From sequence record MN850610.1: a stretch of DNA of 64,000 bases; one strand, given 5' to 3'. Below, piece after piece: positions 13,503 to 56,764 of the stretch (positions are counted from its first letter, which is position 1; each line of letters begins with the position of its first letter). The translations under genes and the position numbers were made by a program. The notes beneath the pieces were generated by a model. It was not told the origin of the DNA, did no database searches, and was given only the letters and a program-made list of their open reading frames with translations. The stretch comes from Escherichia phage Andreotti.

Positions 13503-13898
13503 TCATTCAAACACCACCTCACAAGGAACCTGTTTAGTAATAAACTCTTCACAGTGTTCTTTAATAAAGTTTTGTAATGGAACACAGTCTTGCGCGCAAG
13601 TCATTAGCATAATGTACTCTGGATTCATGATGTTTTCAAGGGTGTAGAAGACAACATCATTAGATAATTCATGACCATCTTCTTCAGACCAAGTTCCAGT
13701 GACTACAGCTAATTTATCAAGTAACTCATTAGGCAACGCTACACCGTCTTCTACGGAGTCGCTTAGAACATTGTCGCTGATGTACAATGTGAAGACTGTA
13801 TGGAATGTTGAGTATTTTACGTGATTCTTTTCGCAAGAGCCACACTCTGAGGCGTAGTCTTTAACCCACTCTAACTGTTTTTGGTTCAACTTAATCAT
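13503..13898 (-). CDS. hypothetical protein
   Basis: co-directional ORF. Confidence 0.45.
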   Translation of the reverse strand: MIKLNQKQLEWVKDYASECGSCEKNHVKYSTFHTVFTLYISDNVLSDSVEDGVALPNELLDKLAVVTGTWSEEDGHELSNDVVFYTLENIMNPEYIMLMTCAQDCVPLQNFIKEHCEEFITKQVPCEVVFE

Positions 13899-14095
13899 AA
13901 TTTCACCCTAGTTGGTAATGCACTGAATGCTATAGCTAACCCTAAAAATGGTTTGAAGCATGACCATAAATCCATTTGTCCGTGATATGATAATCTCCAT
14001 TGTGGGTCTGAAAAACCCCATACCATAACACTAACCCCAAAGAAGAAGATTAGAATGTGGAGTATGTATATCAACGTTTTTGATATTTTAAACAT
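13895..14095 (-). CDS. small membrane protein
   Basis: hydrophobic segment ILHILIFFFGVSVMVWGF. Confidence 0.4.
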   Translation of the reverse strand: MFKISKTLIYILHILIFFFGVSVMVWGFSDPQWRLSYHGQMDLWSCFKPFLGLAIAFSALPTRVKL

Positions 14096-46219: not shown

Positions 46220-54235
<8,016 letters not shown>

Positions 54236-54236
<1 letters not shown>

Positions 54237-54475
54237 TACATTTTTCCTGCTCTTCTAAGTTCGTTGTAAGCAATTTCCTCTTTATACGACCTCTGAATTT
54301 CAAGAAATTGTCTCAATGATAATAAATCAGAGAATGTCATAGCAAAGAGTTGGTCAAGTGTTTCTTTACACCCTTCCATACCATAAATAGCAAGCACAAA
54401 TTTCATCTCGTCTGCTTCTTCATAGGTTGCCTCTACAGCAGCATCAGTTAGTGGTGTCTGTAGAGTGTTACCCAT
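54236..54475 (-). CDS. tail assembly chaperone, frameshift-extension (T-like) part; frame open upstream to about 54556
   Basis: ORF in -1 frame relative to 54478-54876, overlapping its last ~26 codons. Confidence 0.45.
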
Positions 54476-54477
54476 GT

Positions 54478-54876
54478 TTACTGAGAAGTTAGGCTTTTGA
54501 AAATGCTTGCTTCGAAAAAACTTCCGAAGTTTGCCTCCAGCGCAAATGCTAAGTAATCAATGAACTCACCATAGTTTGCTTGGAAGTACGTATCAATATT
54601 AAGTGGGAAGTCATCAACAGTTGCCCCTTGAAATAACAGGGTTGCCATCTCTTCAAGGTTAATTTCTTCAATTCTGTCAAAACAAGCTTCAACAAGCTCT
54701 TTAAATGGAACCATTGGAGCTTCTTTCTTATCTTTATCCGTAAGACTTGACAGCATCTGTGCAAATGTTGGAACAACAATTTTACCCAACTTCATAGACA
54801 TCTTAATACCATCTCTTGCCCCAAGCAGGATGATATTTACTTTCTTACCATTAATTACTCTAGATTCTGTTTTCAT
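54478..54876 (-). CDS. tail assembly chaperone (G-like)
   Basis: position between tube and tape-measure genes; contains slippery heptamer near 3' end. Confidence 0.5.
   Translation of the reverse strand: MKTESRVINGKKVNIILLGARDGIKMSMKLGKIVVPTFAQMLSSLTDKDKKEAPMVPFKELVEACFDRIEEINLEEMATLLFQGATVDDFPLNIDTYFQANYGEFIDYLAFALEANFGSFFEASIFKSLTSQ
54514..54520 (-). other. programmed -1 ribosomal frameshift slippery site U UUU UUC
   Basis: minus-strand agt ttt ttc in the zero frame; -1 frame continues into ORF 54236-54475. Confidence 0.5.
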
Positions 54877-54904
54877 TGTGATTCCTTAATACTTTTAAAA
54901 GAAA

Positions 54905-54938
54905 CAAAAAAGGGGAAGACCTTTTAAAGTCTCCCCCT
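54905..54938 (-). terminator. terminator-like hairpin with U-run
   Basis: A6 then gggga(a)gac...gtctcccc on plus strand downstream of tube gene. Confidence 0.4.
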
Positions 54939-54949
54939 TATAGGATTTA

Positions 54950-55396
54950 TTAAACACTTGACGCTGGAATTGTAGAAGTGTAGTCTAACTTCTCACAACC
55001 AAAAATCCAAGTTTTAGAGTTCTGGTCACGACCAAGTTCAATCTGCGGTAACTCCTGCAACCAAGCGTTAATACCAGTTGCCAGAACAGAGCCTGATGGG
55101 TCGTAGATTACGAAGTTAGAAGAGATATCTTCTTCAAGTTCCATATTGTCTTGTTTAGCTTGAATTGCAGAAAGCATCTGGTTAGAGAGAGAAGTCTGCA
55201 TTAACTCAATCTCAATAGTACCTGTCTTGTCTGCATTTCTTGTCAGAGCAACTTGACCACCTGCACCAACAACTGGTGTCACGAGTGGTGATGTTCTCTG
55301 TAGACGCAAGAATGAGTCTGGGGCAAAGCCTTCAATGGCAATACCATTCCAGCTACATACAACGTCTTTAGGGGAATATTGCTGATACATAGCCAT
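54950..55396 (-). CDS. tail tube protein candidate
   Basis: 148 aa between sheath and chaperones. Confidence 0.45.
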   Translation of the reverse strand: MAMYQQYSPKDVVCSWNGIAIEGFAPDSFLRLQRTSPLVTPVVGAGGQVALTRNADKTGTIEIELMQTSLSNQMLSAIQAKQDNMELEEDISSNFVIYDPSGSVLATGINAWLQELPQIELGRDQNSKTWIFGCEKLDYTSTIPASSV

Positions 55397-55411
55397 TCCA
55401 ATTTACCTCTA

Positions 55412-56764
55412 TTATTCGTAAGCCACTGTACCTTTCAAGTCAACATCCAAGATAGCCCCTGCTAAGATACCTGCGAAGGTAACATCTTTCAGGATACGTG
55501 CTTTCTTGTCTGCTAAAGCAACTTGAGAGGCTTTAGGAACATTAACTGTGTAAGATGACAGGAAGTTTCTGTTGACTGCTCTTTGCAGAGAGGTTTCAAT
55601 GACTTGACGAATACGGGTAATACCAGTATCATCATAAGTAATCTTACCACCCTTCTGGTTAATTAGCAAGTCTCTCAGAGAAGTTTTCAGGTCTGATTCT
55701 AACCAGTCAACACCACGGACGATATCAATCCATTCCCCACCAGAAGTAATCCCTCTACGAACCACTGGAACACCACCATCAAGGTCAATAAAGTTACAGT
55801 GACGTACATCTAAAGCAGACTTCTGAATACTTGTCAGAGGTCTCTGATTAGATGGTTGTAGAGAAGCTGCTACGCCAGTTAGCTGAGCATTACCCCAAGC
55901 AATTGAGCCTGCATCATATGGAGCACCATAAGCAATGTATGCCATCTCTGGGTAATCTTCTGCTGCTGCGTGATGCCACAAGCAAACTGTACGAGTGTAC
56001 ATATTCTTAGCAAGCTGTGCTGGAACATCATTTGCACTGGCTAATTCTGTACCTTGTAGGGCTGTTACATCAGAGTTAGCCGTAAAGAAGATTTTCTTAC
56101 GAGCCTGAATCTCAGAAGCCATTGCTAAGACAAACTGTTGAGTTCTGTCTTCTGCTGCAATGAAATACCAGTCAGTAGAGTAAGCTTCGATAGCTGCCAG
56201 AGCAGTTGCTGCTGTATCAGCAGTTGTACTTGCAATATATACAGTCTGTGCTGTGGTTGTTACTTTCACAAAGTCATTATCACCAGCTTTGGTAATAATC
56301 ATTGTGGCAGAGCCATTGCTACCAGTTACATTCACAGAAACCTTATCTTTGATTGTTGGGTCAGCTTCAATCTGTGTTTTAAACTGTTGCAACACTACCT
56401 CAGCAGTGTCTGAATCTTGTGCTGTGTACTGGTATGGTTGAGAAATTCCACCGCCAACAGCTACAGTAATTGAGTAGTCTGTACTTTCGGTAACGGCATC
56501 AGGAATTGATACAGTGTACTGCATAGCACGTCTACCAATATAAAGCTGAGTTACTTTAGGAGTCTGACTCCAAAGTTGTTTAGCAGCCTTATATGCAGCA
56601 GACCTCTCATCGAAATCTTCAGCAACTTCAGTTAAGGAAGTGTAACCACGTACTCTTTCTTCAAAGTTATCTGTTGAAGCTAAGAATAGTGGCAAACCAA
56701 AACCTTCTCTTGTAGTTCCTGCGGTGTTCAATGTAATATCTACATTAACAATTGGATTCCACAT
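55412..56764 (-). CDS. tail sheath protein candidate
   Basis: 450 aa immediately upstream of tube gene. Confidence 0.5.
   Translation of the reverse strand: MWNPIVNVDITLNTAGTTREGFGLPLFLASTDNFEERVRGYTSLTEVAEDFDERSAAYKAAKQLWSQTPKVTQLYIGRRAMQYTVSIPDAVTESTDYSITVAVGGGISQPYQYTAQDSDTAEVVLQQFKTQIEADPTIKDKVSVNVTGSNGSATMIITKAGDNDFVKVTTTAQTVYIASTTADTAATALAAIEAYSTDWYFIAAEDRTQQFVLAMASEIQARKKIFFTANSDVTALQGTELASANDVPAQLAKNMYTRTVCLWHHAAAEDYPEMAYIAYGAPYDAGSIAWGNAQLTGVAASLQPSNQRPLTSIQKSALDVRHCNFIDLDGGVPVVRRGITSGGEWIDIVRGVDWLESDLKTSLRDLLINQKGGKITYDDTGITRIRQVIETSLQRAVNRNFLSSYTVNVPKASQVALADKKARILKDVTFAGILAGAILDVDLKGTVAYE

What the first reader, a model, noticed from the sequence alone, without database searches (positions are those of the whole stretch)
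54236..54876. Programmed -1 frameshift site (U UUU UUC) in the tail assembly chaperone gene
Near the 3' end of 54478-54876 the minus strand reads agt ttt ttc in frame, giving the canonical X XXY YYZ heptamer. The -1 frame is open from about 54556 through 54236, so slippage would fuse the chaperone to the downstream ORF, giving a product of roughly 210 aa. This is the conserved G/GT arrangement upstream of tape-measure genes and supports the tail-module annotation; the downstream ORF should not be annotated as an independent gene.
Basis: partly seen in the sequence, partly recalled or inferred. Interest (0 to 1): 0.5.

Follow-up and report, generated by a model that had tools for sequence, protein, structure and literature searches.

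The report
Known tail-chaperone frameshift site, Felix O1-like phage
The slippery T TTT TTC site that would fuse two small tail-assembly genes of this Felix O1-like phage is in the sequence and is strongly conserved, but it is the classic, already annotated "G/GT" frameshift, so the finding is correct and ordinary.

Summary
The window is a Felixounavirus, 99.9% identical to Escherichia phage tootiki. On the minus strand the gene order is sheath, tube, chaperone G (54876-54478), "T" ORF (54475-54236), tape measure (54236-52008).

The heptamer T TTT TTC lies at 54520-54514, in frame (agT TTT TTC). The -1 frame is open from 54556 to 54236.

Evidence that the site is functional:
- It is the only one of 48 in-frame heptamers in the window with a long -1 ORF.
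- The T ORF's ATG has no Shine-Dalgarno and is not conserved in relatives.
- nnT TTT TTY with an open -1 frame is kept in 55 distinct relatives, down to 23% protein identity.
- Synonymous variation stops at the site.

There is no downstream hairpin here. An upstream SD-like GGAGG (54538-54534) sits 13 nt before the heptamer and is kept by codon choice (GAG in 43 of 50 loci, 20 expected).

The same fusion is already deposited for phages Mushroom (AJF40599.1) and Moogle (YP_009145710.1) and is stated in genome announcements. I found no experimental test. Verdict: correct, already known, low interest. The practical outcome is an annotation fix.

The parts
54478..54876 (-). Gene G: tail assembly chaperone, 132 aa, 14.9 kDa, the 0-frame product (stop TAA at 54480-54478)
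   Evidence: ORF. Pfam PF21822 Phage_TAC_15 scores 70.9 bits against a cutoff of 22; phrog_1613 'tail assembly chaperone' 7e-49. SD AAGGA lies upstream, -6.1 kcal/mol.
54514..54520 (-). Slippery heptamer T TTT TTC (U UUU UUC) in the frame agT TTT TTC. The C at 54514 is read twice: as the last base of TTC and as the first base of CGA.
   Evidence: Sequence. It is the only in-frame heptamer of 48 in the window with a long -1 ORF. nnT TTT TTY is kept in 55 of 55 distinct IMG/VR loci and in 11 of the 13 GenBank relatives examined, including Vequintavirinae; CL1 reads T7 there and KMM4 has a truncated G. No synonymous variation occurs at the S, F, F and A codons, whereas 19 of 21 upstream invariant residues vary in codon.
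54534..54538 (-). SD-like GGAGG within codons CTG GAG GCA, 13 nt 5' of the heptamer; candidate upstream frameshift stimulator
   Evidence: Anti-SD duplex energy is -9.3 kcal/mol, and only 1.2% of local positions do as well. The Glu codon here is GAG in 43 of 50 distinct loci, against 20.2 expected from local codon usage; in the AT-rich subset it is 26 of 31 against 9.8. It meets the published criterion of GAGG/GGAG 6-17 nt before the motif (PMC4066793). Function is inferred, not shown.
54478..54513 (-). G/T overlap zone, read in two frames: 0 frame EASIFKSLTSQ*, -1 frame RSKHFQKPNFSV
   Evidence: Translations. Window 54491-54531, which spans the heptamer and most of this overlap zone, is the only stretch that blastn still detects in Erwinia phages: 92.7% nucleotide identity, while the proteins are about 43% identical. 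All three codon positions are constrained if both frames are translated.
54236..54514 (-). T segment: the -1 frame part of GT, 92 codons from CGA at 54514 to ATG at 54241-54239, then stop TAA at 54238-54236. Full product is complement(join(54236..54514,54514..54876)), 213 aa, 24.3 kDa.
   Evidence: phrog_4963 'tail assembly chaperone' 2.8e-55 for the 79-aa part. It differs at only 2 residues from Mushroom's deposited fusion AJF40599.1.
54473..54475 (-). ATG used by most annotations to call a separate 79-aa 'T' gene; probably not a real start
   Evidence: No SD: +0.7 kcal/mol, and only 3% of the 87 window genes have an SD this weak or weaker. It is not conserved in Moogle, Yersinia, Hafnia, Erwinia or Pectobacterium relatives.
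52008..54236 (-). Tape measure protein gene, 742 aa. Its ATG overlaps the T stop (ATGTAATG).
   Evidence: Pfam TMP_3 9e-17; phrog_4036 E=0. Sequence.
54950..55396 (-). Tail tube-like virion structural protein (context)
   Evidence: Pfam KPP10_Orf10/DUF3277 3e-7; phrog_280.
55412..56764 (-). Tail sheath (context)
   Evidence: phrog_205 'tail sheath' 4e-122; Pfam DUF3383.

Best explanation
This is a programmed -1 ribosomal frameshift in the tail assembly chaperone gene of a Felix O1-like myophage.

Most ribosomes translate G (132 aa) and stop at 54478. A minority slip back one base with tRNA-Phe in both the P and A sites on U UUU UUC. Both tRNAs re-pair on UUU UUU. The ribosome then reads CGA AGC AAG and so on, and finishes at 54236 as a 213-aa GT fusion.

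By analogy with lambda G/GT and P2 E/E+E', the shared G part would bind the tape measure protein and the T part would recruit the tail tube. The fixed low GT:G ratio would be set by slip efficiency, and neither protein would end up in the virion.

No downstream RNA structure assists the slip in this phage. An SD-like GGAGG 13 nt upstream probably does, by pairing with 16S rRNA in the elongating ribosome as in dnaX and IS911.

Shown here: the sequence anatomy, the conservation, the lack of an independent start, and identity with deposited annotations. Inferred: that slippage occurs, its rate, the role of the SD-like element, and the protein functions.
For: Anatomy.

Gene identities and order (sheath, tube, G, T, tape measure).

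Uniqueness: this is the only one of 48 in-frame heptamers with a long -1 ORF.

No independent start: the T ATG has no SD. In relatives a start codon is absent or far downstream of conserved T residues.

Conservation: TTTTTTC sits in the same frame with a 94-126-codon -1 ORF ending at the tape measure gene in Moogle, Sf17, SUSP1, Hafnia, Erwinia, Pectobacterium and Yersinia phages, and in Vequintavirinae CR8 and Av-05 at 26-28% identity. All 55 distinct IMG/VR loci carry AGT or TCT, then TTT, then TTC or TTT. The Ser codon switches between the AGT and TCT families but keeps its final T.

Synonymous sites are frozen at the slip site only (Fisher p = 0.0012).

Distant GC-rich relatives carry strong hairpins 5-7 nt after the same heptamer.

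The upstream GAGG is kept by codon choice.

U_UU.U_UU.C shifts at more than 0.1% without stimulators and belongs to the efficient H_HH.U_UU.Y class in E. coli (PMC4066793).

The predicted fusions for Mushroom and Moogle match AJF40599.1 and YP_009145710.1 exactly. Both are annotated as 2-piece CDS. The frameshift is stated in PMC4319497 and PMC5543628.
Against: I found no experimental demonstration (protein, reporter or Ribo-seq) for any Felix O1-like phage in the searchable literature.

There is no stimulatory structure downstream. The first 60 nt fold worse than shuffles (z = +1.17), and the equivalent 45-nt stretch in near-identical Felix O1-like loci is less structured than about 84% of local windows. 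Efficiency may therefore be low.

The FF dipeptide is invariant at the protein level, so part of the T-run conservation is protein-driven.

The IMG/VR loci were ascertained with a peptide pattern that ends in FF. The codons were not fixed by that pattern.

The SD-like element is missing in the Erwinia, Hafnia and Yersinia phages and in CR8, so it is not essential to the family.

The stop of G and the ATG of T are only 2 nt apart, so some termination-reinitiation cannot be excluded in this phage.
Confidence: 0.88

Rival explanations
1. T is an independent 79-aa protein, initiated at ATG 54475 by termination-reinitiation or translational coupling with G (stop and start are 2 nt apart). The heptamer would be incidental.
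For: Most GenBank records annotate two separate genes. The exact 79-aa sequence is called as a gene on at least 1000 contigs. The TAAACATG spacing would allow coupling.
Against: There is no SD (+0.7 kcal/mol). The ATG is not conserved. Erwinia phage Tian has no start codon before codon 57 of 96, Yersinia P778 has only one TTG, and Hafnia has a GTG at codon 29 without an SD, yet the T residues upstream of these are conserved. The overlap region is frozen at all codon positions, which implies that the -1 frame is translated upstream of the ATG.
Confidence: 0.05
2. GT arises by transcriptional slippage. RNA polymerase inserts one extra U at the T6 run, so a minority of mRNAs encode GT in a single frame.
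For: One extra T does give a single fused ORF, as in the phage CL1 record, which has T7. Some relatives have T7 or T8. A weak hairpin at 54540-54524 precedes the run and was flagged as terminator-like.
Against: The run is only 6 T in 48 of 55 distinct loci. From general knowledge, productive slippage by bacterial RNA polymerase usually needs runs of about 9 or more, or special T5C5-type motifs with a strong hairpin. What is conserved is exactly the X XXY YYZ register, including the wobble T of the preceding Ser codon. Canonical ribosomal stimulators (a hairpin at 5-7 nt, an SD-like element at 13 nt) accompany the site in relatives. The upstream hairpin is weak and not conserved.
Confidence: 0.04
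3. The heptamer is a chance by-product of a conserved Ser-Phe-Phe motif and no fusion is made. The downstream ORF would be non-functional or expressed some other way.
For: In-frame heptamers occur about once per 415 codons by chance. FF is invariant at the protein level.
Against: Other conserved Phe codons in the same gene alternate freely between TTT and TTC, but these two never do. The Ser wobble is always T across both codon families. The -1 ORF of 78-126 codons always ends at the tape measure gene. The T sequence is conserved as protein.
Confidence: 0.02

Closest known systems
Salmonella phage Mushroom CPT_Mushroom69/70 (AJF40599.1) and Citrobacter phage Moogle gp67/68 (YP_009145710.1): annotated tape-measure-chaperone frameshift in Felix O1-like phages
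   Same: Same genes, same heptamer and same junction (...GSFF|RSKH...). My predicted fusions equal the deposited proteins exactly. The window's GT differs from Mushroom's at 2 of 213 residues. Both records annotate a 2-piece joined CDS, and the frameshift is stated in PMC4319497 and PMC5543628.
   Different: Nothing substantive. The window's nearest record (tootiki, MN850647), Felix O1 RefSeq and most others still annotate two separate genes.
Bacteriophage lambda G/GT (Levin, Hendrix & Casjens 1993; Xu, Hendrix & Duda 2004, 2013, 2014)
   Same: [quoted passage not shown] The mechanism and roles assumed here are taken from lambda (review PMC5009743).
   Different: Lambda is a siphovirus and uses G GGA AAG (my recollection). 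Here the phage is a contractile-tailed myophage and uses U UUU UUC. G belongs to Pfam Phage_TAC_15. I did not test sequence similarity to lambda gpG.
Bacteriophage P2 E / E+E' (Christie et al. 2002)
   Same: Myophage; -1 slip on a T-run heptamer (TTTTTTG) between the tube and tape measure genes; no downstream RNA structure (PMC3091744).
   Different: The last base is G rather than C, the chaperone family is different, and the P2 products are smaller (91 and 142 aa). P2's frameshift was shown experimentally; this one was not.
E. coli dnaX and IS911 -1 frameshift signals with an upstream SD-like stimulator
   Same: An SD-like element (here GGAGG) lies within the experimentally stimulatory 6-17 nt interval upstream of an X XXY YYZ motif (PMC4066793).
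   Different: dnaX and IS911 also use a downstream hairpin, and dnaX's shift truncates the protein rather than extending it. The role of the SD-like element here is only inferred from codon-choice conservation.

Membership tests
Tail assembly chaperone G/GT programmed -1 frameshift (Xu, Hendrix & Duda 2004) | Two adjacent or overlapping ORFs between the major tail (tube) gene and the tape measure gene | tested here: met
   Order is sheath 56764-55412, tube 55396-54950, G 54876-54478, T 54475-54236, tape measure 54236-52008.
Tail assembly chaperone G/GT programmed -1 frameshift (Xu, Hendrix & Duda 2004) | The second ORF is in the -1 frame relative to the first, and that frame is open across the end of the first ORF | tested here: met
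   The -1 frame is open from 54556 to 54236 and spans the G stop at 54480-54478.
Tail assembly chaperone G/GT programmed -1 frameshift (Xu, Hendrix & Duda 2004) | An in-frame slippery X XXY YYZ heptamer inside the overlap window | tested here: met
   T TTT TTC at 54520-54514 in the register agT TTT TTC. It is the only such motif in the 26-codon window.
Tail assembly chaperone G/GT programmed -1 frameshift (Xu, Hendrix & Duda 2004) | The slip site and frame arrangement are conserved in diverged relatives | tested here: met
   Found in 11 of the 13 GenBank relatives examined (CL1 reads T7 there and KMM4 has a truncated G), including Vequintavirinae at 26-28% identity, and in 55 of 55 distinct IMG/VR loci. 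Synonymous sites are frozen at the site.
Tail assembly chaperone G/GT programmed -1 frameshift (Xu, Hendrix & Duda 2004) | The downstream ORF lacks its own translation initiation signals | tested here: met
   There is no SD before ATG 54475 (+0.7 kcal/mol against a median of -6.0). The start codon is absent or displaced in relatives.
Tail assembly chaperone G/GT programmed -1 frameshift (Xu, Hendrix & Duda 2004) | Two proteins with a common N-terminus are made at a fixed ratio; both are needed for tail assembly and are absent from virions | not testable with these tools
   This needs Western blot or MS, reporter assays and genetics. I found no published test for Felix O1-like phages.
Pfam PF21822 Phage_TAC_15 | HMM score above the curated gathering threshold | tested here: met
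   70.9 bits against a cutoff of 22, E = 1.9e-19, covering residues 9-124.
-1 PRF with an upstream SD-like stimulator (dnaX / IS911 type) | [quoted passage not shown] 2014) | tested here: met
   GGAGG at 54538-54534. A four-base SD core (GAGG in every case) is present in 43 of 50 distinct loci, and GAG is strongly over-used relative to local codon usage. Stimulatory activity itself was not tested.
-1 PRF with a downstream hairpin or pseudoknot stimulator (IS3 / retroviral / coronaviral type) | A stable structure beginning about 5-9 nt 3' of the heptamer | tested here: not met
   The 60 nt downstream fold at -3.4 kcal/mol (z = +1.17). There is no consensus structure among Ounavirinae. In near-identical Felix O1-like loci the 45-nt stretch is less structured than about 84% of local windows. 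Distant GC-rich relatives do have such hairpins.
Programmed transcriptional slippage | A long homopolymer run (about 9 or more A/T), or a specialised motif with a strong nascent-RNA hairpin | tested here: not met
   The run is T6 here and in 48 of 55 relatives. The upstream hairpin has 6 pairs including 2 G-U and is not conserved. The length threshold is from general knowledge, not tested here.

The most novel reading that the evidence does not exclude
The Felix O1-type signal may be a structure-free, two-part recoding signal: an invariant U UUU UUY slip site and an SD-like GAGG/GGAGG held at a fixed 13-nt distance by synonymous codon choice. This pairing would be maintained across a very large chaperone family (Phage_TAC_15, down to 23% identity), while downstream hairpins are gained in GC-rich lineages and are absent in AT-rich ones. 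That would make the family a natural series for studying how frameshift stimulators are exchanged while the slip site stays fixed.
Probability: 0.4. Interest if true: 0.3.

Novelty: already known. Interest (0 to 1): 0.15.

Why it matters
The main consequence is for annotation. In this genome, and in most of the roughly 300 Felix O1-like records including RefSeq Felix O1, the 79-aa ORF at 54475-54236 should be replaced by a joined CDS, complement(join(54236..54514,54514..54876)), alongside the 132-aa G.

The result also confirms the tail-module assignment.

Two side results may interest people who study recoding. First, the same U UUU UUY site persists across a huge and very divergent chaperone family. 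Second, an upstream SD-like element appears to be maintained by codon choice, while downstream hairpins come and go with GC content. Neither changes what is known about how these phages build tails.

Tried and rejected
- Structure prediction. G alone, without an alignment, gave an unusable model (mean pLDDT 39), so I ran no fold search.
- PDB sequence search with a 9-sequence G profile gave only chance-level hits, the best at E = 0.044 to coronavirus nsp8.
- NCBIfam had no family for G or GT. Pfam had no family for the T part.
- Downstream stimulatory structure. Single-sequence folds of 60-120 nt and RNAalifold on 15 relatives found nothing at the right spacing. A hairpin CUCUACAG...CUGUAGAG starts about 48 nt downstream, too far to be a stimulator, and is not conserved.
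- A hairpin enclosing the T-run (CUUCGGAAG UUUU UUCGAAG, -10 kcal/mol, z = -0.8), and the 'terminator-like' hit at 54540-54524, were both rejected as weak and not conserved.
- Literature searches for experimental proof in Felix O1-like or rV5-like phages returned only genome announcements that state the prediction.
- I did not use the large homology searches (search for homologous proteins, the search of protein representatives). The answer did not depend on them.

Full report
**What the window is.** Bases 54000-55400 match 294 phage records. The best match is Escherichia phage tootiki (MN850647, Felixounavirus) at 99.9% over the full query, and Felix O1-like phages of Escherichia, Salmonella, Shigella and Citrobacter follow at 95-99%. 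All genes around the finding lie on the minus strand in the usual myophage order:
- tail sheath, 56764-55412 (phrog_205, 4e-122)
- tube-like structural protein, 55396-54950
- a 132-aa ORF, 54876-54478
- a 79-aa ORF, 54475-54236
- tape measure protein, 54236-52008 (Pfam TMP_3; phrog_4036)

These assignments rest. The 132-aa ORF is a tail assembly chaperone: Pfam Phage_TAC_15 scores 70.9 bits against a cutoff of 22, and phrog_1613 gives 7e-49.

**The observation.** In the frame of the ATG at 54876 the minus strand reads GGA AGT TTT TTC GAA, so T TTT TTC occupies 54520-54514 in the X XXY YYZ register, at codons 119-121 of 132. The -1 frame is open from 54556 to the stop at 54238-54236, and it is the frame of the 79-aa ORF.

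**Chance.** In-frame heptamers are frequent: I counted 48 in about 19,900 codons of 87 window ORFs. About 0.06 would be expected in the 26-codon stretch where a slip would be productive. Of the 48, this is the only one followed by a long -1 ORF: 94 codons, against 36 for the next longest and 2-16 codons for the other 46. The motif alone would be weak evidence, and the case rests on what follows.

**Is the downstream ORF an independent gene?** Its ATG at 54475 has no Shine-Dalgarno. The best anti-SD duplex is +0.7 kcal/mol, against a median of -6.0 for 87 genes and -5.1 to -12.6 for all 15 neighbouring tail-module genes. The ATG is also not conserved:
- In Moogle and Sf17 the first ATG is 5 codons later.
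- Yersinia P778 has only a TTG.
- Hafnia phage SarahDanielle has a GTG at codon 29 with no SD.
- Erwinia phage Tian has no start codon of any kind before codon 57 of 96.

The T-frame residues upstream of these positions are nevertheless conserved. In those phages T can only be made as an extension of G.

**Conservation of the slip site.** TTTTTTC sits in the same register, with a -1 ORF of 94-126 codons ending at the tape measure gene, in the following relatives:
- Mushroom, Felix O1, Moogle, Sf17 and SUSP1
- Hafnia, Erwinia, Pectobacterium and Yersinia phages
- the Vequintavirinae phages CR8 and Av-05, whose chaperones are only 26-28% identical to this one

A scan of IMG/VR gave 79 loci, 55 of them distinct, with identity down to 23%. 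Every one has AGT or TCT, then TTT, then TTC or TTT, followed by a -1 ORF of 78-118 codons. The Ser codon switches between the AGT and TCT families but always ends in T, and the first Phe codon is never TTC.

One caveat applies. These loci were found with a peptide pattern ending in [SC]FF, so FF itself was selected for, although the codons were not. The GenBank relatives were found by whole-protein tblastn and carry no such bias.

In an alignment of 11 diverged Ounavirinae, 19 of 21 invariant residues upstream of the site vary in codon. That includes four other Phe positions, which alternate between TTT and TTC. The S, F, F and A codons at the site never vary (Fisher p = 0.0012, sequences not independent).

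The only part of the locus that blastn still detects in Erwinia phages is window 54491-54531. That stretch is the heptamer plus the two-frame overlap, at 92.7% nucleotide identity while the proteins are about 43% identical. This pattern is expected if both frames are translated through the overlap.

**Stimulatory elements.** There is none in this phage:
- The first 60 nt fold at -3.4 kcal/mol, worse than shuffled controls (z = +1.17).
- RNAalifold finds no consensus structure among 15 relatives.
- In near-identical Felix O1-like loci the 45-nt stretch after the heptamer is less structured than about 84% of local windows.

Distant, mostly GC-rich members of the same family do carry strong hairpins starting 5-7 nt after the same heptamer. 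One example is CCGCGAGCG-N9-CGCUCGCGG in the L073-L093 group. These fall in the top 1-3% of local windows, which independently marks the site as a frameshift signal.

Upstream I found GGAGG at 54538-54534, 13 nt before the heptamer. Its anti-SD duplex is -9.3 kcal/mol, matched at only 1.2% of local positions. It is formed by the codons CTG GAG GCA. The Glu codon is GAG in 43 of 50 distinct loci, against 20.2 expected from each locus's own GAA/GAG usage. In AT-rich loci it is 26 of 31 against 9.8 expected, and GAG makes up only 30% of Glu codons in this window's tail module. This meets the criterion of Sharma et al. 2014 for a conserved SD-like stimulator: GAGG or GGAG 6-17 nt before the motif in at least half of a family (PMC4066793). 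The element is absent in the Erwinia, Hafnia and Yersinia phages and in CR8, so it is not universal, and its activity is inferred.

**The heptamer itself.** In E. coli, U_UU.U_UU.C is among the motifs that shift at more than 0.1% without any stimulator. It belongs to the efficient H_HH.U_UU.Y class and is used by IS elements (PMC4066793). P2, another myophage, uses TTTTTTG for E/E+E' without downstream structure (PMC3091744).

**Prior knowledge.** GenBank records of Salmonella phage Mushroom (Felixounavirus, 97.7% nucleotide identity here) and Citrobacter phage Moogle annotate a two-piece joined CDS over exactly this region. The fusions I predicted from a slip at the heptamer are identical, residue for residue, to AJF40599.1/YP_009600435.1 and AIW03804.1/YP_009145710.1. 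The window's GT differs from Mushroom's at two residues. [quoted passage not shown] 2004 for it (PMC4319497, PMC5543628). Most other records still list two genes, including tootiki, LinBro and RefSeq Felix O1. I found no experimental test in the searchable literature.

**Mechanism and rivals.** The best-supported reading is a ribosomal -1 slip on U UUU UUC that gives G and GT at a fixed ratio. The functional roles are taken by analogy from lambda: G binds the tape measure protein and T recruits the tube protein (PMC5009743). My confidence is about 0.88.

- Independent initiation or reinitiation of T is contradicted by the missing SD, the non-conserved start and the frozen overlap. I give it about 0.05 as the sole route; a minor contribution in this phage cannot be excluded.
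- Transcriptional slippage on T6 would also give GT, and the CL1 record with T7 is a single 213-aa ORF. However, the run is short, what is conserved is the heptamer register rather than run length, and ribosomal-type stimulators accompany the site. I give it about 0.04.
- A meaningless chance motif gets about 0.02.

**Verdict.** The feature is the well-known G/GT tail-chaperone frameshift, already deposited for phages of the same genus. Novelty: already known. Interest: low. The useful outcomes are an annotation correction and two side observations: the upstream SD-like element kept by codon choice, and the lineage-specific downstream hairpins.

Noticed in passing
window 54910-54939 (minus strand), T-tail to about 54900: A strong rho-independent terminator (13-bp stem, 6 G-C pairs, then TTTTTGTTTCT) lies in the 73-nt gap between the tube gene stop (54950) and the G start (54876). 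It could lower transcription of the chaperone and tape measure genes relative to sheath and tube. The phage KhF2 record annotates a terminator in this region.
   Followed up: partly
L010 (Escherichia phage CL1, OK040806.1) 857-863: This record has T7 instead of T6 at the slip site, so G and T form a single 213-aa ORF, annotated as one 'tape measure chaperone' (UCJ01344.1). This is probably a homopolymer sequencing error. If real, the phage would make GT only.
   Followed up: partly
L013 (Citrobacter phage BSwM KMM4, OP902293.1) 501-770: The chaperone gene is truncated to 89 aa and tblastn recovers it in three pieces. Indel errors in that assembly are the likely cause.
   Followed up: no
IMG/VR loci L073-L093 group, L078, L079, L066, L070 (just 3' of the TTTTTTC at about 1870-1880): Distant, mostly GC-rich relatives of the chaperone carry strong hairpins beginning 5-7 nt after the same heptamer, for example CCGCGAGCG-N9-CGCUCGCGG with G-U wobble variants. 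These fall in the top 1-3% of local 45-nt windows. Felix O1-like phages have none. I did not formally test covariation.
   Followed up: partly
GU169904.1 'Staphylococcus phage SA1' 74360-75000; WP_252560994.1 'Staphylococcus hyicus': Records labelled Staphylococcus hold sequence about 97% identical to this Felix O1-like region. This points to chimeric assembly or contamination rather than a Staphylococcus phage.
   Followed up: no
window 54236-54475 homologues in SUT_S820 (OQ871556) and VpaE1_ev035 (LR699048): The T ORF or its neighbours are labelled 'head closure protein' and 'Tail sheath protein' in these records. These look like mis-annotations.
   Followed up: no
window 54499-54502 (minus strand, codons ATT TTC): A second, weaker slip candidate lies inside the overlap: a U_UUC tetramer that could shift by the A-site tRNA alone. 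It would lead into the same -1 frame and give a GT with five more G-frame residues. It is conserved in Ounavirinae but not beyond.
   Followed up: no
window 54234-54241 (minus strand ATGTAATG): The stop of the T frame (TAA 54238-54236) overlaps the ATG of the tape measure gene (54236-54234). The tape measure gene's SD (AGGA, -5.1 kcal/mol) lies inside the T coding sequence.
   Followed up: no
window 14012-14018 in ORF 13895-14095 (minus strand): An in-frame G GGT TTT heptamer has a 36-codon -1 ORF, the second longest in the window. The shifted product would be shorter than the normal one. This is probably chance.
   Followed up: no
window 1-64000: ARAGORN finds no tRNA genes in the 64-kb window, although Felix O1-like phages carry about 22 (PMC5543628). 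The tRNA cluster must lie in the part of the genome outside the window.
   Followed up: no
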